Translations under genes and position numbers: made by a program | Notes under the pieces: generated by a model | Database searches by the model: none | What the model was told of the DNA's origin: nothing | Seen by the model: the letters and a program-made list of their open reading frames with translations, nothing else | Origin: an actinobacterium acAMD-2 | GTDB lineage: Bacteria > Actinomycetota > Actinomycetes > UBA12327 | Direction: 5' to 3' | Assembly: GCA_000754455.1 (NCBI GenBank) | Contig: JNSE01000021.1 | Coordinates: 1-49,738 of the forward strand | Length of the DNA: 49,738 nt | Part shown: positions 23,096 to 43,002 of the stretch, one piece after another | Position numbering within the stretch: the first letter of the stretch is position 1 | Layout of the letters: every line of letters starts with the position of its first letter

Positions 23096-23962
23096 GTGTT
23101 TGGACGTAAGAAAGACGAAGCCTTCGTCTCAAGCCCAATGCGCGACAACTGGTATCAATCCAGTTCGTACTGGCCCTCATCATTTGCCCTGGTCACCACT
23201 GTTGATGAGGATGGCAACACCAACATCGGGCCGTACCAACTCAGCTTCCCGTTTGAGATCATCACCGGGCGATCGTTCTTGGTTATCAGCCGACAAAACT
23301 CCAATACTGACCAAAACATCAAGCGCACCGGTAAAGCCGCGATGAACTTTGTCGAATTCGATCGCAAGACGTTGTCGAAAATTGTCGGAATGGGTTACCC
23401 CGGGCAGTTGACCAACGAAAAGATGAAGGACAACCCCTACACGCTGATTCCCAGTCCCACCCCGGGGCGCGAGCCTGACGGCAAAGTCATGCCACACATT
23501 CTCAAAGAGGCATTCCAGGTTTATGAAGTCACCTGGGATGACCAGCAGCCCATCCGCGATGACGGCAAGACCCCGGAGTACTTCGTTCTTCGCATCGAAA
23601 ACATCCTTCTGAAGGAACAGTGGGCTGACAACCTCGCCAATGGCACGAAGAAGATGCCACGCATGCCCATCACCTTTGGGTTCCGCGATGGTGGGAAGTT
23701 TTGGTTCGCCGAACTCAAGAAACCCTTTTGGATCCCCACTCCGACGGACAAGGGACCTAAAGAAGAGGCGATCTTGTACGAGGCCAATCGCATTGACCCG
23801 GAGATCCAATTCACCCGTGATGCGTGCAAGCAACTCACCGGCATCCCTCGACCCTTCGTCAAGACGGCCCTAAAGGGAATCGTGAAGCAGGCTAAGGAAC
23901 AAGGCGTCACCCTGGTGGATGAGGAATTCGTCACCAAGATCAACGCCGAGCGAAACGCTTAA
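23096..23962 (+). CDS. Second flavin-reductase-like protein fused to a PCP_red-like C-terminal domain
   Basis: LVTTVDEDGNTNIGPY, SNTDQNIKRTGKAAMN; tail FTRDACKQLTGIPRPFVKTALKGIVKQAKEQGVTLVD. GAGGAG RBS before GTG 23096. Confidence 0.72.
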   Translation: MFGRKKDEAFVSSPMRDNWYQSSSYWPSSFALVTTVDEDGNTNIGPYQLSFPFEIITGRSFLVISRQNSNTDQNIKRTGKAAMNFVEFDRKTLSKIVGMGYPGQLTNEKMKDNPYTLIPSPTPGREPDGKVMPHILKEAFQVYEVTWDDQQPIRDDGKTPEYFVLRIENILLKEQWADNLANGTKKMPRMPITFGFRDGGKFWFAELKKPFWIPTPTDKGPKEEAILYEANRIDPEIQFTRDACKQLTGIPRPFVKTALKGIVKQAKEQGVTLVDEEFVTKINAERNA

Positions 23963-24115
23963 CCATCATTGGGGAACATCCCAACGATGGTTTTGTAGAG
24001 CTGAGGGGAACCGTCGAACGCTACGCGTTCTCCTCCCAAATCCCCGCCACTTCATCTCCACCAAAAAACCATCATTGGGGAACATCCCAACGATGGTTTT
24101 GTGGAGCTGAGGGGA
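23961..24115. repeat. 49-bp direct repeat (23961-24009 and 24067-24115, one mismatch) covering the tRNA-Ala 3' end and its terminator; att-like
   Basis: AACCATCATTGGGGAACATCCCAACGATGGTTTTGT(A/G)GAGCTGAGGGGA occurs twice, 106 bp apart. Confidence 0.92.
24063..24100 (-). terminator. Intrinsic terminator after tRNA-Ala; the copy at 23961-23994 probably terminates the plus-strand gene
   Basis: 15-bp arms 24065-24079 and 24086-24100 (one G-U pair on the minus strand), 6-nt loop, U-tract. Confidence 0.8.
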
Positions 24116-35016: not shown

Positions 35017-36138
35017 ATGACAATCGTGGTGAATGACCCCCAGGCCGCCGAATTTGGTCGCGCCGTGAGCCAGTTTGCTCAAGACATTCACCTCATTGAC
35101 CAACCGGTGGATCGTCAGGCCTGGAAGCGTGCCGGTGCATTAGGTCTGACCGGTTTGGAAATCCCTGCCGCGTTTGGTGGCTCAGCTGGCGCTACCTATG
35201 CATGGAACGCAGCCGCAGTAGATGCACTTGCCACCGTCTCCCACGGACTGTCCTCCACCTTCACCATTTCCTTTGACATTGCCACTCCCTATTTAGTCGA
35301 CCTGGGAACTCCTGAGATTCACCAACGCTGGCTCCCGGTCTTGGCTCAAGGTGAGGCAATCGCCGCTTTAGCTTTGACCGAACCAGGTGCGGGATCAGAC
35401 CTTGCAGCACTAACGACGCGGGCCGAGCTAAAGGCTGATCACTACTTGATCACTGGATCAAAGACTTTCATCACCAACGGATCAATTGCTGATGTGATCG
35501 TGGTCGCTGCCCGCACCAGCCCACAAGCCGGTGCCCGCGGAATCAGCCTTTTCGCTGTTGACGCAAATGCAGCCGGTTTAACGCGACGTCGCATCACCAC
35601 GATTGGCCAAAGCGACTGCGATACGGCGGAGTTGTTCTTTGATCAAGTGAAGGTTCCGCTCTCTCACTTACTGGGCACCCTTGACGACGGTTTCTTGCAC
35701 CTGATGGAGCGTCTTCCCCAGGAGCGGATTACCTCATCGATTGCCAACTTGGCTCAGGCAGATGTCGCTATGAACCTGACCTTGGCTCAGGTTCGGGAAC
35801 GACAAGCATTCGGCCGACCCCTGGGCTCACTTCAACACAATGCCTTCCGCCTGGCTGAGCTCGACGCGCAACGCAGCGCCGTGCGAGCACATGTCGATGC
35901 GTGCATTGAGCGCCTAATAAATAGGACAATGAGCACAGCGGATGGGGCTCGTGCGAAGTTGCTGTCCGCGCGACTCGAGAACGACATCCTTGACCTAGGT
36001 ATGCAACTACACGGCGGTTCGTCGTTCCTTGAAGGCACCGAAATCAATCAACGCTGGATTGATGGACGCATTACGCGCATCTGGGCCGGAGCAGACGAGA
36101 TCATGCTTCACCTCATCGCCAAGGACCTTGGGCTGTAG
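35017..36138 (+). CDS. Acyl-CoA dehydrogenase (LCAD-like)
   Basis: ALTEPGAGSDLA, GSKTFITNG, DTAELFFD, LPQER, RQAFGRPL, QLHGG, RIWAG..EIM; ORF may start at TTG 34972. Confidence 0.9.
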   Translation: MTIVVNDPQAAEFGRAVSQFAQDIHLIDQPVDRQAWKRAGALGLTGLEIPAAFGGSAGATYAWNAAAVDALATVSHGLSSTFTISFDIATPYLVDLGTPEIHQRWLPVLAQGEAIAALALTEPGAGSDLAALTTRAELKADHYLITGSKTFITNGSIADVIVVAARTSPQAGARGISLFAVDANAAGLTRRRITTIGQSDCDTAELFFDQVKVPLSHLLGTLDDGFLHLMERLPQERITSSIANLAQADVAMNLTLAQVRERQAFGRPLGSLQHNAFRLAELDAQRSAVRAHVDACIERLINRTMSTADGARAKLLSARLENDILDLGMQLHGGSSFLEGTEINQRWIDGRITRIWAGADEIMLHLIAKDLGL

Positions 36139-36141
36139 ACC

Positions 36142-37362
36142 ATGGTCAACGACGTTGTCATAGTTGCTGCGGCACGCACTCCCATCACCAAAGCTATTCG
36201 CGGCACATTCGCCAACGTTCGAGCCGAAGACTTAGCCATTGCGGCTATAGCCGGGGCCTTGGACAAAGTTCCCGCAGTGGACCGAGCCAGCATTGATGAC
36301 TTCATCACCGGAAGCTGGATGCACGCGGGCAGTCAAGGCGGAAACATGGCACGCCGAATCGCAGTAATGATGGGACACGACGCCGTGCCTGGCGTCACCG
36401 TCAACCGAGCATGCGCCTCTTCCCTTCAAGCCATTCGCATGGCTCACCATGCAATTGCGCTAGGGGAAGCCGACGTTGTGGTTGCCTCTGGCGTGGAATC
36501 AATTTCGGGGTACACCGAACCCACCGGTGCCGGATCTACCCCAGATCACGAACGACACCCGTTCTTCAACCAAGCAGCGCAACGTACGCGACTGGCCGTT
36601 GGCGACAACGCGACGTGGGCGGATCCTCGCGAGGCCGGTGAATCGCCAGACATCTACTTGGCGATGGGACACACAGCCGAAAACGTCGCTTCATTACGCG
36701 GCATCACGCGAGAAGAGCAAGATGCCTTCGCACTGCGATCTCAACGACTCGCGAATCAAGCCATCGCGGAAGGATTCTTTGCACGCGAAATTGTCCCCGT
36801 CACCGTCGGTCACGACATCGTGTTGTCTGACGAATCCGTGCGGAGCGAGACCACCGCTGAAGGCCTGGCTTCACTTAAACCGGTTTTTCGGCCACAGGGA
36901 ACGATTACAGCCGGTAACTGTTGCCCGCTCAGCGATGGAGCCGCTGCGGTCGTGGTGATGAGCGCCGACAAAGCAAGGGCTTTGCAGCTTTCTCCGTTAG
37001 CGCGCATTCGCAGCTACGGGGTATCTGCGCTCTCCCCCGAGGTCATGGGTTTGGGGCCGGTCGAGTCAACACGCAAGGCATTACTCCAAGCCAACATGAG
37101 CATCGATGACATCGACCTAGTGGAAATGAATGAAGCCTTTGCTGCTCAAGTCTTGCCGAGTTGTCATGATCTGGGTCTGGACCTTGACAGCGTGAACGTT
37201 CATGGCGGTGCCATTGCCTTAGGGCACCCCTTCGGCATGGGTGGAGCTCGATTGACCACCACATTGCTTAACGGACTGATAGCGCGCGATGTGAACGTAG
37301 GCCTGGTCACCATGTGTGCCGCTGGCGGTCAAGGTATGAGCATGATTGTTGAGCGGATCTAG
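36142..37362 (+). CDS. Acetyl-CoA C-acyltransferase (thiolase)
   Basis: VNRACASS (Cys), NEAFA, GHPFGMGG (His), TMCAAGGQG (Cys). Confidence 0.95.
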   Translation: MVNDVVIVAAARTPITKAIRGTFANVRAEDLAIAAIAGALDKVPAVDRASIDDFITGSWMHAGSQGGNMARRIAVMMGHDAVPGVTVNRACASSLQAIRMAHHAIALGEADVVVASGVESISGYTEPTGAGSTPDHERHPFFNQAAQRTRLAVGDNATWADPREAGESPDIYLAMGHTAENVASLRGITREEQDAFALRSQRLANQAIAEGFFAREIVPVTVGHDIVLSDESVRSETTAEGLASLKPVFRPQGTITAGNCCPLSDGAAAVVVMSADKARALQLSPLARIRSYGVSALSPEVMGLGPVESTRKALLQANMSIDDIDLVEMNEAFAAQVLPSCHDLGLDLDSVNVHGGAIALGHPFGMGGARLTTTLLNGLIARDVNVGLVTMCAAGGQGMSMIVERI

Positions 37363-37460
37363 TTCGGCGAGTACTACTGCGCGAATGCTCTGCACCTCTT
37401 ACCCTTAATCACGACAGCATGCTTGTCAGTACCCCCGCGCTTCAAGGAGTGAGATTCTCA

Positions 37461-38375
37461 ATGGCAACAAACCACAGCGGACGCACCCGTCAACGCAATG
37501 GCATCGCCATCGGCGAGGGCGCCATCCGTAAGATCTTTCCGGCCTTTGTGTTGTTGATGTGGATCACCGCGGGGATTTGGATTGCCAACGGTCAGTGGAC
37601 CACTCTGAACACCATCTTGGCGCTTGAGGCCCTAGCCATTTGCTCCGTGGTCTTTGTCAACTTTGTGCATGTGTTTAATTTCGGGTACGCGGCATGTGTC
37701 GTTGTTTTGAACACGACCATCTTGGTCGCCAAGGGCGCACCGTTGGGCTCCATCATCGTGGGTGGACTCCTCATGATTTATGGAATTCGCTTATTTACCT
37801 TTGTTGCTAACCGCTACCGCCACGCGTCTTATGCTCAACGCCGGGCCGGCACGGTCATCGCGCATAAGCAACTTCCATTGCCGATTAAGATTCTTCTCCT
37901 CATCAACACCGCGACCCTCATGACCTTCCACGCCATGACGACCTACAACGTGGCAACGAAGGCGGCCGATGAGGGCAACAGCGGCCTGAATGGCTGGCTC
38001 ATCATCGGAGGTCTCGTCCTTGCCCAAGGCATCGCCATCGAGGCTCGTGCGGACTACGAGAAGCAGCAAGTCAAGCGAAACAATGGTGACAAGTGGATCA
38101 GCTCAGGCTTGTTTGCTCGTACCCGTCACCCCAACTACCTGGGCGAAATCATGATGCAGGTCGGCGTCATCTTGTGTGGAATCGGTGCTGCCAGCAATTG
38201 GTACGGCTACGCGGCAGGATTCTTAGCCCCGACCTACATCATTATCTTGATGTTGTCGGCGACAACAGGTGGCGAAAAGTCCAAGCGTGACAAGTACAGC
38301 GAGGACCCCGAATTCCGTGCTTACTTGCGTCGTTCCAATGCGTTGTTGCCAAAGTTTCGCAAAGTCAACGTTTAA
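37461..38375 (+). CDS. DUF1295 / steroid 5-alpha-reductase-like membrane protein
   Basis: Multiple TMs; EARADYEK, GLFARTRHPNYLGE, Y..Y.RRSN.LLP; GGAG RBS before ATG 37461. Confidence 0.85.
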   Translation: MATNHSGRTRQRNGIAIGEGAIRKIFPAFVLLMWITAGIWIANGQWTTLNTILALEALAICSVVFVNFVHVFNFGYAACVVVLNTTILVAKGAPLGSIIVGGLLMIYGIRLFTFVANRYRHASYAQRRAGTVIAHKQLPLPIKILLLINTATLMTFHAMTTYNVATKAADEGNSGLNGWLIIGGLVLAQGIAIEARADYEKQQVKRNNGDKWISSGLFARTRHPNYLGEIMMQVGVILCGIGAASNWYGYAAGFLAPTYIIILMLSATTGGEKSKRDKYSEDPEFRAYLRRSNALLPKFRKVNV

Positions 38376-38410
38376 CTCGCACCCCGCTTCACACCATGTC
38401 TTTGACTTGC

Positions 38411-38627
38411 TAGCCTTTCGCGCATGTCATCGACGTCACAGCCTTCCGTGCACCTAGTGGTTAGGCGCCACGTTGACCTCATGCGGATTTGTTCCAGCTC
38501 GTGTTGTTGCTGTAACTAATCCGCCGTCCAAGAAAACCCTGGGCGCTGCGGCGCTTGATGGATGTTTTCTTGACCTCCTCTGTCTTTCTTGCGTCGTTGC
38601 GTCTTCCTAACTGGAGGAAACTAAGCA
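38411..38627 (+). promoter_or_regulatory. Putative cysteine-responsive attenuator leader
   Basis: Hairpin 38483-38524 over the Cys codons; hairpin 38529-38537/38564-38572; alternative partner 38585-38591; CCTCC 38574-38578 complementary to SD GGAGG 38613-38617. Confidence 0.65.
38424..38519 (+). CDS. Leaderless cysteine-rich leader peptide MSSTSQPSVHLVVRRHVDLMRICSSSCCCCN (31 aa)
   Basis: TAGCCT (38411-38416) + 7 nt + ATG; RRHVDL..R motif of actinobacterial leader peptides; TGT-TGT-TGC-TGT run just before the stop; 108 nt upstream of the next gene. Confidence 0.85.
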   Translation: MSSTSQPSVHLVVRRHVDLMRICSSSCCCCN

Positions 38628-39116
38628 ATGAGCGTTACTGACGAATACTTGAAGAACAACGAGGCCTACGCCGCGAATTTCTCAGGACCCCTTCCCCTGC
38701 CTCCATCACGCAACATCGCCGTCGTTGCCTGCATGGACGCTCGATTGGATGTCTACGGGATTTTGGGGCTTGGCCAAGGCGAATCCCACGTGATTCGCAA
38801 TGCTGGTGGAGTCGTCACCGATGACGAGATCCGCTCGCTGGCCATCAGCCAACGTCTGCTCGGCACCAAGGAAATCATCCTCATCCACCACACGGACTGC
38901 GGAATGTTGACCTTCACCGACGACGAGTTCAAGGCCGGTATCCAAGCCGAGACAGGCATCAAGCCCGAGTGGGCTGCCGAGGCCTTCCCCGATCTGGACG
39001 ACGACGTGCGCCAGTCCATCAAGCGCATCAAGAACAGCCCCTTCATTCCGCACACCGATGCGGTTCGAGGATTCGTTTTCGATGTGGCCACTGGCAAGCT
39101 CAACGAAGTCAAGTAA
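38628..39116 (+). CDS. Beta-class carbonic anhydrase, Rv1284/clade-D-like (possible COS hydrolase)
   Basis: ACMDARLD (Cys-x-Asp-x-Arg), HVIRNAGG, HHTDCGM (His-x-x-Cys), RGFVFDVATGKL; 162 aa. Confidence 0.93.
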   Translation: MSVTDEYLKNNEAYAANFSGPLPLPPSRNIAVVACMDARLDVYGILGLGQGESHVIRNAGGVVTDDEIRSLAISQRLLGTKEIILIHHTDCGMLTFTDDEFKAGIQAETGIKPEWAAEAFPDLDDDVRQSIKRIKNSPFIPHTDAVRGFVFDVATGKLNEVK

Positions 39117-39124
39117 GTCAGGCA

Positions 39125-39164
39125 GATGCGGGAATGCAATCCGAACCGGATGCATTCCCGCATC
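39125..39164 (+). terminator. Long hairpin after the carbonic anhydrase (likely terminator without U-tract)
   Basis: GATGCGGGAATGCA-A-TCCG-AAC-CGGA-TGCATTCCCGCATC: 14+4 bp stem. Confidence 0.75.
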
Positions 39165-39240
39165 ATTGCCGTGAGGCGAAAACTGGTCTCATCACGGCGT
39201 GGGTGAAATCGAGTTCACCGGCTCCCACTAAGTTTGTTGT

Positions 39241-40023
39241 GTGCAAGTACTCACCACGCTGACGTCCTTTAGCGACGACCAAGGCAACGTCATCGAATAC
39301 GACGGCATGGTCGAAGGCGAAATCAAGATCAAATTCAAAGGCAACAACAACCGCCTCACCATCCATCCTGGGGCAAAGATTCAGCGTCTCTTTGTTGACT
39401 TTGACTGCGACAACGGCGTATTGACCATTGATGAAAACTTGGGCGGCCCACCCTTTCGAGCCAACATCCGCGTTGGGCAGGACTCAACGGTGACAGTAGG
39501 CAAGAACGTCTCCGCCACCTCTGCAGTAGCCATCTCCGCTACCGAAGGCACCACGGTTGCCATCGGTGACGATGTGATGTTTGCCAGCGAAAATGAAGTG
39601 CGGGCCGACGATGGCCACCCCATCTTTGACGTACGCACGGAAAAACGTGTCAACGTCTCAAGGTCAATAACCATCGGCAATCACGTATGGGTGGCTCGCG
39701 AAGCGGTCTTGCTCGGAGGAGCAACCATCGGCGAGGGTTCGGTTATCGGTTACCGCAGTCTGGTCACCGGAAAAATCCCGAACAACTGCATTGCCGTGGG
39801 TATCCCAGCCAAGGTCGTACGAAAGAGCATCGCGTGGGAGCGCCCCCACCTTTCGCTGATCAAGCCTTATTACAAACCCGACAGTCGAAGCATCAAGAAG
39901 AGCCCGTACTGGAACGTGACCGAGGGTGACATTCAGGTAGGACCTAGGCTGACACCCAAGGCCATCCTCAAGCGCGCGCGACGGGTAGCCGGCAAGGTCA
40001 AGCGAAGGCTGCAGCGCAGGTAG
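39241..40023 (+). CDS. Hexapeptide-repeat O-acyltransferase
   Basis: IGDDVMFA, DGHPIF, ITIGNHVWV, GATIGEGSVIG, NCIAVGIPAKVV. Confidence 0.88.
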   Translation: MQVLTTLTSFSDDQGNVIEYDGMVEGEIKIKFKGNNNRLTIHPGAKIQRLFVDFDCDNGVLTIDENLGGPPFRANIRVGQDSTVTVGKNVSATSAVAISATEGTTVAIGDDVMFASENEVRADDGHPIFDVRTEKRVNVSRSITIGNHVWVAREAVLLGGATIGEGSVIGYRSLVTGKIPNNCIAVGIPAKVVRKSIAWERPHLSLIKPYYKPDSRSIKKSPYWNVTEGDIQVGPRLTPKAILKRARRVAGKVKRRLQRR

Positions 40024-40037
40024 TCCAAGGCCAGATG

Positions 40038-40110
40038 GCCCCCGTAGCTCAGGGGATAGAGCAACGGTTTCCTAAACCGTGTGCCGCAGGTTCGAATCCT
40101 GCCGGGGGCA
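40038..40110 (+). tRNA. tRNA-Arg(CCT)
   Basis: GCCCCCGTAGCTCAGGGGATAGAGCAACGGTTTCCTAAACCGTGTGCCGCAGGTTCGAATCCTGCCGGGGGCA, anticodon CCT. Confidence 0.96.
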
Positions 40111-40140
40111 CAAATCCGATAACGAACAATCCCAACCAAA

Positions 40141-40190
40141 AGATCAGCGGCTGCGATTTTCCAATCCCAGCCGCTGATCTATGTAACGAG
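40141..40190. terminator. Hairpin between tRNA-Arg and the convergent SBP gene
   Basis: AGATCAGCGGCTG (40141-40153) and CAGCCGCTGATCT (40178-40190), perfect 13-bp arms. Confidence 0.7.
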
Positions 40191-40196
40191 GTATTT

Positions 40197-41378
40197 CTAG
40201 TAGTCGGCTCCAACAGCCTTTGACCATGCCTCATTGATCGCCAACGCACCAGCGTCAGTGACGTCGAGCACGACCAGCGTTGCTGGATCACGGTTACCGT
40301 TGGCAGCGTCGATCGTCACCGAACCGGTCACGCCTTCCCAGCCCTTGACCGCGTCCAAGTTGGCCTTGAGTTTCTTGGCATCAAAGCCACCCGTCTCCTC
40401 GGCGGCCTTAGCCAGCAAGTTCAACGAGTCAAAGGTGTACGGGCTCCACGTGCCGGGCTCTTCGCCAAAAGCGGCCTTGTACTGACTAACAAAGTCAGGA
40501 CCGTTGGGGAATTCGCTTGGCGAGGGAACTCCAATGACGGGGCACGCCTTGGCCGCAGGGATTCCCGCAGTCGTGACGAAGATCGGGTCGGCTGCTGCGT
40601 AGTCCGCAACGCACTTCGCGGGGACCTTCGTGTCGTACATCGTCTTGGCAATCAATCCAGCCTGAGGTGAATACATCACCAAGTACACGACATCAGGGTT
40701 CAACGCAGCTGCGGCTTTCACCTGCGCCGCGTAGGACTTAGCTCCAGGAGTAATGCCCACATTGGCCTTGACCGTGACGCCGGCCTTTTCCAAACTTGCC
40801 TTCAATTTGGCATTAGTGGTAGCCGTGTAGCCAGGAGTTGAATCAAACACCAAGACTGCGGTCTTGGCCTTCAACCACTTAGTGACTGCTTCGGTTGCCA
40901 CAGGAACGATTTGATAGTCCATCGGCTGGAGGGTGTAACCCAATCCATTGGTCGTGGTGCTGTTGGACGTCAAGCGAATAGGGGTGAGACCAGCCTTGAT
41001 GTACAACGGCAAAGTCTTGGCGCCTGCACCGGAGTTGTAGGGGCCAACGACCCCATCAAGGCCGGCCTTAATCGCAGCGGTAGCCGCTTTGACACCGACG
41101 ACGGCATCTGCTGCATCGTCAATAGGAACGATGACGACCTTCTTACCGTTAATGCCGCCCTTGGCATTGAGCTGATCGGCCGCCAGTTGGGCACCGTTGA
41201 TCATGCCTTTGCCAGTATCGGCCTGGTCGCCGGAAATCGGCGCTTCCACACCAATGCGGACAGTGCCGGTCAGCGCGGGGGTAGCCGTGGCATTGGAATC
41301 ACTTGAAGAGCTCGAGCACCCAGCCACGGCCAACGAAACGAGTGCGCACAGCGCAAGAATCTTGGAGGTTTTTGTCAT
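40197..41378 (-). CDS. Branched-chain amino acid (LivJ/K-like) ABC substrate-binding lipoprotein
   Basis: Lipobox VAG-C; RIGVEAPISG, GAQLAADQLNAKGGING, VVGPYNSG, Y.FDSLNLLAKA; ATG 41378. Confidence 0.88.
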   Translation of the reverse strand: MTKTSKILALCALVSLAVAGCSSSSSDSNATATPALTGTVRIGVEAPISGDQADTGKGMINGAQLAADQLNAKGGINGKKVVIVPIDDAADAVVGVKAATAAIKAGLDGVVGPYNSGAGAKTLPLYIKAGLTPIRLTSNSTTTNGLGYTLQPMDYQIVPVATEAVTKWLKAKTAVLVFDSTPGYTATTNAKLKASLEKAGVTVKANVGITPGAKSYAAQVKAAAALNPDVVYLVMYSPQAGLIAKTMYDTKVPAKCVADYAAADPIFVTTAGIPAAKACPVIGVPSPSEFPNGPDFVSQYKAAFGEEPGTWSPYTFDSLNLLAKAAEETGGFDAKKLKANLDAVKGWEGVTGSVTIDAANGNRDPATLVVLDVTDAGALAINEAWSKAVGADY

Positions 41379-41520
41379 GGCGAAAACCTTACCTAAGGAC
41401 CAAAAGAAAGCAGGGGCATCCCTCGGGCAACGCGCCAAGGACGTTAATCCCACGTCCACGCGGACAAATCCCTCTCCTCGCCTACATTGACTCAAGGGAA
41501 AACAGGGAGGGCACCACCGA

Positions 41521-43002
41521 ATGAGAGAACCCAGTGATTCGACTGGCGACGATGAGTGGGGTTTCATTACCGCGCGCGCCAAGCCCTCACCACAGACAGC
41601 GACGAACAAAGAAGCCCTCGCTGATCTGATCGAATCGGAAAGTTCTACCCCAGCCGAACCAAAGAAGAACGTGGTGGGAAGCCGCCTCGAATCCTGGGGT
41701 GATCAATCGTCGATTGAACAACTTCGTGGTCGGGCTCGACCCCTCTCGTGGGCCATCGCCGCAGTGTTCGTCATCGGCTACATCAACGAAATCGTCGCTG
41801 GTTCTCGATTTGTTTCCCTACTGGGCCTCAAAGCAGTCATCATCATTTATCCACTGGCAGGCCTAGGCCTCATTGCCGTTGCTTTGTTGCAGATCACATG
41901 GATTGATCGCCTCCCGCGCGACAAAGCACTCTCGCGCGTCACCAAGATTTATGCCGGTGGTTTCGTCATCGGATTGATCCTTGTGGCCATTCCCCAGACC
42001 ACCATCATTGGCTCAGGGGTGATCTGGCTTTTCGCTGACCAATTGAACTTCCTGCTGCCGCTCATCATCTGGACTATGACCAGCGATGTGTTCAATGCCG
42101 GTGAGGGGCGCAAGATTTATCCGTCCATTACGCAGTGGCAATACGGTGGCCAACTCACCGGTCTAGCCATCAGCGCGTTAGCACCCTTCCTCTTTATCCC
42201 CCTAGGGATTCCTCTGCCCTACCTGCTCCTGATCTGCCCTATTGGTCTGTTGCTGATCGGGGTACTGCTGCCACGAGCGCTCAAAGACTCGGCTTTGAGC
42301 CAAGGCCATGGTCGCGACGAAAACGTCGTTGAGTCACTGAAATCAGCCTGGAGTTTCGTCGGCGGAGTGAAGGCCTTCACCGCGATGTTCTCGACCTCGG
42401 TTGCTGTCTTTACCGCCGGAATGATTTACAAAGGCGCCTTCCTCAGCAACAGCGAGGTGATTGTCAACGATCCAGCGAAGCTGCAAGTGATCTACGGGCT
42501 CACGATGATCGCCGTGTTCATCATGTGTGGACTCCTCCAAAAATTCTTCGTTACCAAAATCTTGGAGAAATTCACCATCCCTGGCTCATTGCTCCTCTTG
42601 CCAATCTTTGCCACCGCTTGCGGAGTCTTCATGGCATGGGGCCTCATCGGCGGGCTGGGCATTAAGCCGCAATACTTGCCATTCCTGATAATCGGCATCA
42701 TCTTGTGGTGGGTGCCTCGCTGGAGCATCGATGACGTTGCTCGCCGCACCGCGCTAGCCGTTGTCCCCAACGAACGTCGGGCACGTGTTTCCTTCATCAT
42801 TGACCTACTCCCCATCTGCGTTGGTCTTATTGCGGCCGGTCTGGTTCTAGGACTCACCTACGCAACCGGTCTCACCCAGTTGGCACCGCTCATCGCCTTA
42901 CCCTTTGCGCTCTTTGCGATCTTCCCTGCGCGGGTCATGGCCAAGGAGTGGGACAAGGCCCTGTTGAGCCCCTTGCTGCGGATTCGCAAACGCCTGAACT
43001 AG
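41521..43002 (+). CDS. About 12-TM MFS-fold transporter, Npt1/Npt2 (TLC) family-like
   Basis: W.MTSDVFNAGEGRKIYP.I...Q.GGQL.G motif; WSIDDVARR.AL..VP...R.R motif; GGAGG RBS. Confidence 0.55.
   Translation: MREPSDSTGDDEWGFITARAKPSPQTATNKEALADLIESESSTPAEPKKNVVGSRLESWGDQSSIEQLRGRARPLSWAIAAVFVIGYINEIVAGSRFVSLLGLKAVIIIYPLAGLGLIAVALLQITWIDRLPRDKALSRVTKIYAGGFVIGLILVAIPQTTIIGSGVIWLFADQLNFLLPLIIWTMTSDVFNAGEGRKIYPSITQWQYGGQLTGLAISALAPFLFIPLGIPLPYLLLICPIGLLLIGVLLPRALKDSALSQGHGRDENVVESLKSAWSFVGGVKAFTAMFSTSVAVFTAGMIYKGAFLSNSEVIVNDPAKLQVIYGLTMIAVFIMCGLLQKFFVTKILEKFTIPGSLLLLPIFATACGVFMAWGLIGGLGIKPQYLPFLIIGIILWWVPRWSIDDVARRTALAVVPNERRARVSFIIDLLPICVGLIAAGLVLGLTYATGLTQLAPLIALPFALFAIFPARVMAKEWDKALLSPLLRIRKRLN

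What the first reader, a model, noticed from the sequence alone, without database searches (positions are those of the whole stretch)
38424..39164. Candidate sulfur-scavenging system: cysteine-gated clade-D beta-CA as a carbonyl sulfide hydrolase
Seen: a 162-aa beta-CA with CMDAR and HHTDC zinc ligands, downstream of the Cys-rich leader and closed by a strong hairpin, so apparently a monocistronic unit. Known: COS and CS2 hydrolases (Thiobacillus, Acidianus) belong to beta-CA clade D, clade-D enzymes of soil Actinobacteria degrade COS to H2S + CO2, and mycobacterial Rv1284 lies beside cysD/cysNC. Inference: a cysteine sensor makes little sense for CO2 hydration but good sense if the enzyme supplies sulfide from COS. 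That would link a trace gas to sulfur assimilation.
Basis: inference. Interest (0 to 1): 0.8.

Follow-up and report, generated by a model that had tools for sequence, protein, structure and literature searches.

The report
Cysteine-gated beta-carbonic anhydrase gene unit
A small uncultured actinobacterium that cannot reduce sulfate puts one of its two carbonic anhydrases behind a tiny cysteine-sensing leader gene, which suggests, without proving it, that the enzyme is switched on under cysteine shortage to release sulfide from the gas carbonyl sulfide.

Summary
Window 38628-39116 encodes a 162-aa beta-carbonic anhydrase, 75% identical to M. tuberculosis Rv1284/CanA. A 31-codon sORF ending CSSSCCCCN (38424-38519) precedes it and a strong hairpin (39125-39164) follows it.

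New evidence:
- The sORF, its TANNCT-N7-ATG start context and all five Cys codons are kept in 9 sequence variants of one genus. The Cys-codon core is 95% identical between the two most distant genomes, against 86% for the enzyme gene.
- It is the only genuine run of four Cys codons in the genus's 100%-complete genome.
- It is absent upstream of about 230 other CanA-type genes.
- All six genus genomes lack PAPS-reductase/CysD and sulfite-reductase domains and a sulfate-binding protein. They keep the sulfide-dependent mec-cysO-cysM operon and metY.
- A second, leaderless clade-D carbonic anhydrase is present.
- In a tree the enzyme groups with both Rv1284 (a true carbonic anhydrase) and the Thiobacillus COS hydrolase.

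Not shown: COS activity (sequence cannot tell it from CO2 hydration), the direction of regulation, and any ribosome-dependent RNA switch in equilibrium folding.

Verdict: a new variant of the mycobacterial polycysteine-leader attenuator with a new target. The COS-to-sulfide reading is plausible (about 0.4-0.45) and directly testable.

The parts
38411..38416 (+). -10-like hexamer TAGCCT, 7 nt before the sORF ATG (leaderless-type start context)
   Evidence: Read from sequence. TAGCCT/TAACCT/TAATCT-N7-ATG is kept in all genus genomes, including the divergent G003. No sigma-70 consensus promoter was found by the scan. The transcription start is not mapped.
38424..38519 (+). Leader sORF, 31 codons, MSSTSQPSVHLVVRRHVDLMRICSSSCCCCN. 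Cys23 is at 38490-38492, Cys27-30 at 38502-38513, stop TAA at 38517-38519.
   Evidence: Nine nucleotide variants all keep the frame (one with a 9-nt in-frame deletion), all five Cys, and a TAA or TAG stop. Core nt 46-105 is 95% identical between G000 and G003, against 44% for the sORF 5' part and 86% for the CA gene.
38476..38482 (+). ACCUCAU inside the sORF, complementary to the CA start region AUGAGCGU (38628-38635)
   Evidence: Long-range helix in the RNAalifold consensus, paired in 7 of 7 sequences, but both sides are invariant, so there is no covariation evidence.
38483..38524 (+). Hairpin spanning the Cys codons and the stop codon (GCGGAUU...AAUCCGC)
   Evidence: Present in the single-sequence MFE and in the consensus structure. 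One U-A to U-G change occurs in G003.
38545..38600 (+). GC-rich segment GCUGCGGCGC...(38545-38564). It can form a local hairpin or pair with GCGUCGUUGCG (38581-38600), which alternatively pairs with the CA start region.
   Evidence: Alternative pairings seen. Only 2 pairs of the whole consensus structure have compensatory changes, one of them in this helix.
38562..38611 (+). Pyrimidine-rich, G-poor spacer (C15 G8 T23 A4; in G003 C22 G6 T14 A8)
   Evidence: The composition is conserved although the sequence is only 56% identical. Compatible with a Rho-loading site (inference).
38602..38635 (+). Sequestered translation initiation region of the CA: anti-SD UCUUCC 38602-38607, SD GGAGGA 38613-38618, AUG 38628-38630
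   Evidence: P(unpaired) of the SD is about 0.1 and of the AUG about 0. The cost of opening it is 10.3-13.6 kcal/mol in all 9 variants.
38628..39116 (+). Beta-carbonic anhydrase, 162 aa, CanA/Rv1284 type (Cab-type, clade D)
   Evidence: PF00484. 1YLK E 1.2e-75, about 75% identity. Tree placement.
39125..39164 (+). Strong stem-loop closing the unit (probable U-tract-less terminator)
   Evidence: -46.5 kcal/mol, z -6.1. A hairpin of different sequence sits at the same place in G003, G004 and G005. The arm occurs only here in the genome.

Best explanation
This is a self-contained, single-gene sulfur-starvation unit. Transcription probably starts at or next to the sORF ATG (38424). Ribosomes translate a 31-codon leader with one Cys codon, then four consecutive Cys codons one codon before the stop. 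The ribosome-binding site and start codon of the downstream CanA-type (clade D) beta-carbonic anhydrase are buried in RNA structure by default. When charged tRNA-Cys is scarce, ribosomes pause on the Cys codons and remodel the leader. They most likely uncover the start region, which can pair with the sORF segment just upstream of the first Cys codon, and the enzyme is then made. This follows the proven mycobacterial polycysteine leaders. The genus cannot reduce sulfate but makes cysteine and homocysteine with sulfide-dependent enzymes (Mec-CysO-CysM, MetY), and it has a second, unregulated beta-CA. The most coherent job for the induced enzyme is therefore hydrolysis of dissolved carbonyl sulfide (COS + H2O -> CO2 + H2S) to feed sulfide into cysteine synthesis. 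Shown: the anatomy, its conservation, its uniqueness in the genome, the family placement and the genomic sulfur context. Inferred: translation of the sORF, the direction of regulation, the RNA switch and COS as the physiological substrate.
For: Enzyme identity and clade. In the tree the window's CA lies in a 34-row clade (SH-aLRT 95) that contains both Rv1284 and the T. thioparus COSase. Leader conservation, frame-preserving indel and synonymous Cys change. Core 95% identical against 86% for the gene. Only genuine polycysteine sORF in G000 and in the 100%-complete G003. One copy per genome in 6 of 6 genus genomes, none in the two other genera of the order. Default-closed initiation region (10.3-13.6 kcal/mol to open). 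sORF segments complementary to the SD and start region: -12.7 to -16.1 kcal/mol duplexes and a consensus long-range helix 38476-38482 with 38628-38635. Mechanistic precedent with mutational proof in M. smegmatis: bioRxiv 10.1101/834739. Sulfur context: PF01507 0 of 6, PF01077 0 of 6, sulfate-binding protein 0 of 6. cysKM is over cut-off in 5 of 6 and split over two contigs in the sixth. It sits in a Prok-JAB/ThiS/PALP operon. metY is over cut-off in 3 of 6, with fragments at contig ends in two more. Second leaderless clade-D CA in the five congeners. Precedent for COS as a sulfur source through a clade-D enzyme in a fungus and in engineered E. coli, with the role in heterotrophic bacteria stated as unknown: PMC10880591. 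COS degradation by Actinomycetes carrying clade-D beta-CAs: cited in PMC8209446.
Against: The protein is 75% identical to Rv1284, reported as a highly active CO2 hydratase. It lacks the roughly 48-residue insertion, including the tunnel-narrowing loop, of the bacterial COSase. No known sequence feature separates COSases from CAs in clade D. Equilibrium folding shows no relief of the buried start region when ribosome footprints are masked (changes mostly 0 to -2.4 kcal/mol). The consensus structure has no covariation support (covariation term +0.74, 2 compensatory pairs). No intrinsic terminator lies between the sORF and the gene. The leader is confined to one genus. None was found upstream of 79 other genome homologues (the 80th locus is the congener G003), 77 metagenome homologues or 24 homologues from other genera. 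Cys-rich sORFs are not enriched there (6 sense against 7 antisense). So there is no independent evolutionary replicate. Other reduced-sulfur routes exist, with several rhodanese-domain proteins. Gene absences rest on MAGs, though one is 100% and one 93% complete.
Confidence: 0.43

Rival explanations
1. The leader is a genuine cysteine-responsive attenuator, but the enzyme works as an ordinary carbonic anhydrase (CO2/HCO3- interconversion). The link to cysteine would then be indirect, for example extra bicarbonate or pH control during a starvation or oxidative-stress programme that lowers charged tRNA-Cys, or replacement of the other CA under such stress.
For: 75% identity to Rv1284, a highly active CA. 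All catalytic residues are of the CA type. No COSase-specific insertion. Neighbours of CanA-type genes in other Actinomycetota are mostly unrelated to sulfur (PAC2 10, LytB 9, release factor 7).
Against: No step of the Mec-CysO-CysM or MetY routes is known to need bicarbonate (general knowledge). The genus already has a leaderless beta-CA. It is hard to see why the single polycysteine sensor of the genome would serve CO2 hydration.
Confidence: 0.25
2. The induced enzyme releases sulfide from a different small thiocarbonyl compound, such as CS2 or a thiocarbonate/thiocarbamate, or it acts on COS generated inside the cell (for example from thiocyanate) and not on environmental COS.
For: Clade D also holds CS2 hydrolases (3TEN, E 8.5e-26). 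In Thiobacillus the COSase sits in sulfur-oxidising energy metabolism, downstream of thiocyanate hydrolase (general knowledge).
Against: CS2 hydrolases are more distant than Rv1284 or the COSase. Fungal clade-D COSases show little or no CS2 hydrolysis. No thiocyanate hydrolase was looked for here.
Confidence: 0.08
3. The sORF product is itself functional: a 31-residue peptide with a C-terminal CxxxCCCC cluster that binds zinc or another metal, or acts as a thiol/persulfide carrier for the zinc enzyme encoded next to it. It would not be a sensor of tRNA-Cys charging.
For: The reading frame and all Cys are conserved, and HVDLMR[IM]CSS is also kept at the peptide level. The neighbour is a zinc enzyme.
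Against: Conservation of the core extends to synonymous positions and past the stop codon into TCCGCCGTCC, which points to an RNA-level constraint. The N-terminal half is free to vary and carries a deletion. No Pfam family matches. Canestrari et al. traced the effect of comparable mycobacterial sORFs to ribosome occupancy of the sORF RNA.
Confidence: 0.07
4. The conserved core is a structured regulatory RNA (a riboswitch-like element or protein-binding site), and the Cys codons are incidental to a U/G-rich helix.
For: The core forms a conserved hairpin and is more conserved than the coding sequence.
Against: No Rfam family matches at E <= 1. The in-frame ATG with a fixed -10 spacing, the frame-preserving 9-nt deletion and a TGT-to-TGC change that keeps Cys are what a translated ORF predicts. 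Four consecutive in-frame Cys codons one codon before the stop match the known attenuator design.
Confidence: 0.05

Closest known systems
Polycysteine leaderless sORF attenuators of mycobacteria (the 'Cys ribulon', e.g. Ms5788A/Rv0815A, Rv2334A; Canestrari et al. 2020, bioRxiv 10.1101/834739)
   Same: An unannotated sORF of about 30 codons at the very 5' end of the transcript. Consecutive Cys codons sit at its C-terminus. About 100 nt of structured spacer follows, the SD of the downstream gene is buried, and no intrinsic terminator is present.
   Different: It lies in a different, uncultured actinobacterial order with 1.2-1.7 Mb genomes. The target is a beta-carbonic anhydrase, which is not among the listed regulon members. 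It is a single-gene unit, and it is the only such leader in the genome, not one of six to eight. The Cys tract itself is not the obvious partner of the SD, and equilibrium folding gives no switch.
M. tuberculosis Rv1284 / CanA (PDB 1YLK), Cab-type beta-carbonic anhydrase
   Same: About 75% identity over 160 residues, the same length and the same zinc ligands. Same clade in the tree.
   Different: Rv1284 has Cys at the position of Gly61 here (NAGC against NAGG). From memory, unchecked, that Cys takes part in the redox inactivation of Rv1284. No polycysteine leader was found upstream of the Mycobacterium homologues sampled.
Carbonyl sulfide hydrolase of Thiobacillus thioparus THI115 (PDB 3VQJ)
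   Same: Strong similarity over residues 3-110 (E 4.5e-40) and the same catalytic residues. It falls inside the same CanA-type clade, on a long branch.
   Different: The COSase is 219 aa, with an insertion of about 48 residues where this protein has 14. That insertion includes the loop said to narrow the substrate tunnel. It serves energy metabolism, not assimilation.
Fungal COSases of Trichoderma harzianum and Gloeophyllum trabeum (clade D, about 163 aa), used to assimilate COS sulfur (PMC10880591, PMC12035519)
   Same: Same size class, no extra loop, tunnels like that of Rv1284. COS-derived sulfide enters cysteine/glutathione, which is the physiological role proposed here.
   Different: Eukaryotic, reported as constitutively highly active, and phylogenetically distinct from prokaryotic clade-D enzymes. 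Here the link to sulfur is regulatory and genomic, not biochemical.

Membership tests
Beta-class carbonic anhydrase (Pfam PF00484) | Profile match above the curated cut-off | tested here: met
   50.2 bits against a cut-off of 25.7, E 4.5e-13.
Beta-class carbonic anhydrase (Pfam PF00484) | Zinc ligands Cys-His-Cys plus the Asp-Arg dyad (CxDxR ... HxxC) | tested here: met
   C35, D37, R39, H88 and C91 align with those of Rv1284.
Clade D / Cab-type beta-CA | Groups with Cab, Rv1284, COSase and CS2 hydrolase, apart from other beta-CA types | tested here: met
   PDB hits for Cab-type and clade-D chains are at E <= 7.6e-15, and the next chains at E >= 3.9e-4. In a tree of 53 sequences, the Cab-type set of 47 rows is split from CanB-type and other beta-CAs with SH-aLRT 98. 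Named clade A-C reference sequences were not included.
Bacterial COS hydrolase (T. thioparus type) | Additional loop/insertion (Gly150-Pro158) that narrows the substrate tunnel | tested here: not met
   The alignment to 3VQJ breaks at residue 110. The COSase has about 48 residues where this protein has 14. The role of the loop is described in PMC12035519.
COS hydrolase (any type) | High COS hydrolysis with low CO2 hydration | not testable with these tools
   The literature states that sequence cannot yet distinguish the two.
Polycysteine leaderless sORF attenuator (Cys ribulon) | Short ORF with at least two consecutive Cys codons near its 3' end, upstream of and on the same strand as the regulated gene | tested here: met
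   Four consecutive Cys one codon before the stop, plus Cys23, 108 nt before the CA start. Conserved in 9 variants.
Polycysteine leaderless sORF attenuator (Cys ribulon) | Leaderless transcript (transcription starts at the A/G of the start codon) | tested here: inconclusive
   A conserved TANNCT lies 7 nt before the ATG, and no SD precedes the sORF.
Polycysteine leaderless sORF attenuator (Cys ribulon) | RNA structure that buries the downstream SD and is opened by a ribosome paused on the Cys codons | tested here: inconclusive
   The SD and AUG are buried. sORF segments are complementary to the SD and start region. Ribosome masks do not open them at equilibrium, and there is no covariation.
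Polycysteine leaderless sORF attenuator (Cys ribulon) | Expression responds to cysteine supply | not testable with these tools
   Needs reporter or transcript data.
Classical leader-peptide transcription attenuator (trp/his type) | Intrinsic terminator (GC hairpin plus U tract) between the leader ORF and the gene | tested here: not met
   No terminator-like site in 38200-39400. The hairpins after the sORF have no adjoining U tract.

The most novel reading that the evidence does not exclude
An uncultured, genome-streamlined actinobacterial genus, probably from lake water, has lost sulfate reduction. It uses a ribosome-based tRNA-Cys sensor to switch on a dedicated clade-D beta-carbonic anhydrase that harvests sulfide from dissolved carbonyl sulfide. 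This would be the first regulated COS-assimilation system in bacteria. It would give the long-observed COS degradation by heterotrophic Actinomycetota a physiological purpose and would make planktonic bacteria a biological sink for aquatic COS.
Probability: 0.4. Interest if true: 0.8.

Novelty: new variant of a known kind. Interest (0 to 1): 0.62.

Why it matters
[quoted passage not shown] A 2024 paper that demonstrated COS assimilation in a fungus states that the purpose of this degradation in heterotrophic bacteria is unknown (PMC10880591).

Here the only cysteine-starvation sensor in the genome is wired to exactly such an enzyme. The organism cannot reduce sulfate and must obtain sulfide. 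That turns a vague association into a testable hypothesis, using one small gene and a 200-nt leader that can be moved into laboratory strains.

It also extends polycysteine-leader control beyond mycobacteria and to a new class of target. It bears on COS budgets, because COS is used as a tracer of photosynthesis. And it bears on how streamlined freshwater bacteria meet their need for reduced sulfur.

Tried and rejected
- Rfam, permissive search of 36000-42000 and of the cysM and metY loci: only the tRNA matched, no riboswitch or known leader.
- Consensus promoter and terminator scan of 38200-39400: nothing found.
- Ribosome-footprint-constrained folding of two and then nine leader variants: the start region stays closed, so no equilibrium switch was demonstrated.
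- RNAalifold on seven variants: a plausible architecture, but no covariation.
- Search for further polycysteine leaders. In G000, in G003 and by pattern in six genomes, all other TGYx4 hits are off-frame inside long ORFs. A CCC sORF on contig C37 runs through a duplicated tRNA end and terminator and was rejected.
- Search for the leader elsewhere. 80 genome loci gave only the congener. 77 metagenome loci gave none. 24 homologues from other genera gave none. A core-DNA pattern across the whole 8-genome order hit only the genus. A looser Cys-rich sORF screen with an antisense control gave 6 against 7.
- The metagenome scan returned no relatives above 86% identity, so it added no leader variants. 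Exact-protein look-up gave three more.
- Synteny of CanA-type genes with sulfate-assimilation genes in other Actinomycetota: present but rare (PAPS_reduct 4, SBP56 2 of 146 neighbours). The one Mycobacterium locus inspected had none.
- Literature: no paper was found that links a cysteine leader to a carbonic anhydrase.
Full report
**1. What is there.**
The window holds, on the + strand, ORF 38628..39116 of 162 aa. It matches Pfam Pro_CA above the cut-off. It is about 75% identical over 160 residues to M. tuberculosis Rv1284/CanA (PDB 1YLK, E 1.2e-75).

Upstream, ORF 38424..38519 encodes MSSTSQPSVHLVVRRHVDLMRICSSSCCCCN. Nine bases after the enzyme's stop codon, a 40-nt stem-loop (39125-39164) folds at -46.5 kcal/mol, z = -6.1.

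**2. The host.**
The window is contig 21 of a metagenome-assembled genome of 0.97 Mb, 60% complete, 57% G+C. Five congeners are held, of 1.2-1.7 Mb, one 100% and one 93% complete. The whole order holds only eight genomes in three genera. One congener's record is titled 'uncultured actinobacterium'. Contigs carrying the identical protein come from environmental metagenome assemblies. A freshwater origin is my inference from the sample names, not a tool result.

**3. The leader is real and under selection.**
Nine distinct nucleotide variants of the region were collected, six from genomes and three more from metagenome contigs.
- All keep an ATG preceded at exactly 7 nt by TAGCCT, TAACCT or TAATCT.
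- All keep the reading frame, including across a 9-nt deletion in the most divergent genome, G003.
- All keep the five Cys codons. One TGT-to-TGC change is synonymous.
- All keep a TAA or TAG stop one codon after the Cys run.

Between G000 and G003 the conservation differs sharply by segment:

| Segment | Identity |
|---|---|
| sORF 5' part | 44% |
| Core, leader nt 46-105 (CACGTTGACC through the Cys codons to TCCGCCGTCC) | 95% |
| Spacer | 56% |
| Enzyme gene | 86% |

TGYx4 runs are no more frequent in these genomes than a reversed control. In the complete genome G003, however, every other hit is an off-frame read inside a long ORF. A scan of G000 for sORFs with Cys-rich tails outside long ORFs leaves only this one as convincing. 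So this is the single polycysteine sORF of the genome.

**4. The unit is monocistronic.**
In G003, G004 and G005 a hairpin of different sequence follows the stop codon, and tRNA-Arg(CCT) follows directly after it. In G000 and G002 a hexapeptide acetyltransferase gene is inserted between the hairpin and the tRNA. The conserved module is therefore the -10 element, the sORF, the 108-nt spacer, the enzyme gene and the hairpin.

**5. How the leader may work.**
Canestrari et al. (bioRxiv 10.1101/834739) showed by mutation in M. smegmatis that leaderless sORFs ending in Cys runs relieve sequestration of the downstream SD when ribosomes pause for tRNA-Cys. Six or more cysteine-related loci are controlled this way. 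A carbonic anhydrase is not among them.

In this window the enzyme's SD (38613-38618) and AUG are buried.
- P(unpaired) is about 0.1 for the SD and about 0 for the AUG.
- Opening the initiation region costs 10.3-13.6 kcal/mol in all nine variants.
- No intrinsic terminator lies between the sORF and the gene.

Several sORF segments are complementary to the initiation region:
- UGUUCCAGC (the Cys23-Ser-Ser codons) pairs with CUGGAGG.
- GUUGCU in the Cys run pairs with AGCAAU at the start codon.
- These duplexes score -12.7 to -16.1 kcal/mol.
- The RNAalifold consensus pairs ACCUCAU (38476-38482, just 5' of the first Cys codon) with AUGAGCGU (38628-38635) in 7 of 7 sequences.

A GC-rich segment (38545-38564) can pair either with itself or with 38581-38600. 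The latter segment in turn competes for the start region. The anatomy thus allows a ribosome-dependent switch.

I could not show such a switch. Masking ribosome footprints changes the opening cost by only about 0 to -2.4 kcal/mol in most variants, and raises it in G003 for late stalls. The consensus structure has no covariation support because the paired columns hardly vary. The pyrimidine-rich, G-poor spacer is conserved in composition though not in sequence, which would also fit a Rho-dependent component. The regulatory direction (pausing turns the gene on) is inferred from the mycobacterial precedent and from the default-closed start site.

**6. Which enzyme.**
PDB similarity ranks as follows:

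| Chain | E-value |
|---|---|
| Rv1284 (1YLK) | 1.2e-75 |
| Small clade-D/Cab-like enzymes 3LAS, CafC 6JQC, 5ZTP | about 1e-41 |
| T. thioparus COS hydrolase 3VQJ | 4.5e-40 |
| CS2 hydrolase 3TEN | 8.5e-26 |
| Cab 1G5C | 1.5e-24 |
| Chains ranked below the Cab-type group | 3.9e-4 or worse |

A 53-sequence tree separates the Cab-type set from CanB-type and other beta-CAs (SH-aLRT 98). It puts the window's enzyme in a 34-row clade (SH-aLRT 95) that holds both Rv1284 and, on a long branch, the COSase. The clade D claim is supported.

The COSase-specific insertion is absent. The alignment breaks after residue 110, and the COSase has about 48 residues where this protein has 14. Fungal COSases also lack that loop yet prefer COS. 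The authors of PMC12035519 state that no known feature separates clade-D COSases from CAs. Sequence therefore cannot decide the substrate. Rv1284 is an active CO2 hydratase, so CO2 activity here is likely too.

**7. Sulfur context, which is the new and most telling evidence.**
All six genus genomes lack:
- any PAPS-reductase/CysD domain (PF01507; found in 14 of 14 control genomes);
- any NIR_SIR sulfite-reductase domain (PF01077; found in 11 of 14 controls);
- a sulfate-binding protein (TIGR00971; found in only 5 of 14 controls, so this absence weighs least).

They keep:
- a cysteine synthase above the cysKM cut-off in 5 of 6 genomes, split over two contigs in the sixth. It lies in a Prok-JAB/ThiS/PALP operon, the Mec-CysO-CysM arrangement of M. 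tuberculosis Rv1334-1336 (the comparison with Rv1334-1336 is from general knowledge);
- O-acetylhomoserine sulfhydrylase MetY, above cut-off in 3 of 6, with fragments at contig ends in two more.

Both routes need sulfide or a sulfide-derived thiocarboxylate.

The five congeners also have a second clade-D beta-CA, 34-36% identical, in an operon with no leader. It is of a type present in most relatives in the class. The CanA-type gene is missing from the two other genera of the order. An accessory CA, gated by the genome's only cysteine sensor, in an organism that must import reduced sulfur, fits sulfide production from COS better than CO2 hydration.

There is precedent. T. harzianum grows on COS as its sole sulfur source through a clade-D COSase, and the enzyme lets E. 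coli do the same. [quoted passage not shown]

**8. Limits.**
- The leader occurs in one genus only. No polycysteine sORF lies upstream of 79 other genome homologues, 77 metagenome homologues or 24 homologues from other genera. Looser Cys-rich sORFs are not enriched (6 sense against 7 antisense).
Among 146 neighbours, PAPS_reduct occurs 4 times, SBP56 twice and Inositol_P 9 times.
- The genus has several rhodanese-domain proteins, so thiosulfate or persulfide routes may also supply sulfur.
- Absences rest on MAGs.

**9. Verdict.**

I put about 0.75 on cysteine-responsive ribosome-mediated control and about 0.43 on the full chain ending in COS-derived sulfide.

Relative to what is known, this is a new variant: a known kind of leader, in a new lineage, with a new kind of target that implies a new physiological role for bacterial clade-D carbonic anhydrases.

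Noticed in passing
Own genome G000, contig C12, minus strand about 15250-15100 (locus L254), and G002 (L253): Upstream of metY (O-acetylhomoserine sulfhydrylase) lies a second Cys/Met-rich sORF: MSSCMCCPSGMDQWCRRA in G000 and MSSCMCCPDGMDRCCQRA in G002. A canonical terminator (GCCGGAAGATTGCTTCCGGCCTTTTGT) follows it, about 100 nt before the metY start. Rfam gives no match. It looks like a classical leader-peptide transcription attenuator for a sulfide-consuming enzyme.
   Followed up: partly
G003:C36:7827-8288 (locus L241 1513-2067, minus strand): The five congeners (not found in the incomplete G000) carry a second clade-D beta-carbonic anhydrase (172-184 aa, 34-36% identical, best PDB hit 3LAS at 2.8e-33). 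Its start overlaps the end of a sucrase/ferredoxin-like gene, and it lies between genes that look like type II topoisomerase subunits (by eye, not scanned). It has no leader. It is probably the housekeeping enzyme.
   Followed up: partly
window 39241-40023: A hexapeptide-repeat acetyltransferase (closest NCBIfam hits are galactoside and maltose O-acetyltransferases, far below cut-off) is present between the CA hairpin and tRNA-Arg only in G000 and G002. G003, G004 and G005 go straight from a different hairpin to the tRNA. This is a small insertion next to a tRNA gene.
   Followed up: partly
window 38628-39116, residue 61: Rv1284 has Cys at the position of Gly61 here (NAGC against NAGG). From memory, unchecked, that Cys forms the disulfide with a zinc ligand that makes Rv1284 redox-sensitive. 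This enzyme has only the two ligand cysteines.
   Followed up: no
Own genome G000, contig C37 about 23890-24100: A duplicated tRNA 3' end plus terminator hairpin (GAATGGCCCCTCCAGGAGGGGCCATTC) produces a spurious 17-codon ORF ending CCCIS. Next to it, on the opposite strand, is a gene encoding a proline/threonine-rich repeat protein.
   Followed up: partly
window 37419-38375: The upstream neighbour is a DUF1295 membrane protein (weak ICMT/ERG4-like matches). It ends 48 nt before the sORF and is conserved at this position in all genus genomes. No terminator is visible between it and the -10-like element.
   Followed up: no
Loci L033-L111 (flanks of CanA-type genes in other Actinomycetota): Recurrent neighbours are PAC2 (10), LytB (9), the inositol-monophosphatase family (9, possibly CysQ-like), peptide release factor (7), PAPS_reduct (4) and SBP56/methanethiol-oxidase-like (2). 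There is a weak but non-zero sulfur association.
   Followed up: partly
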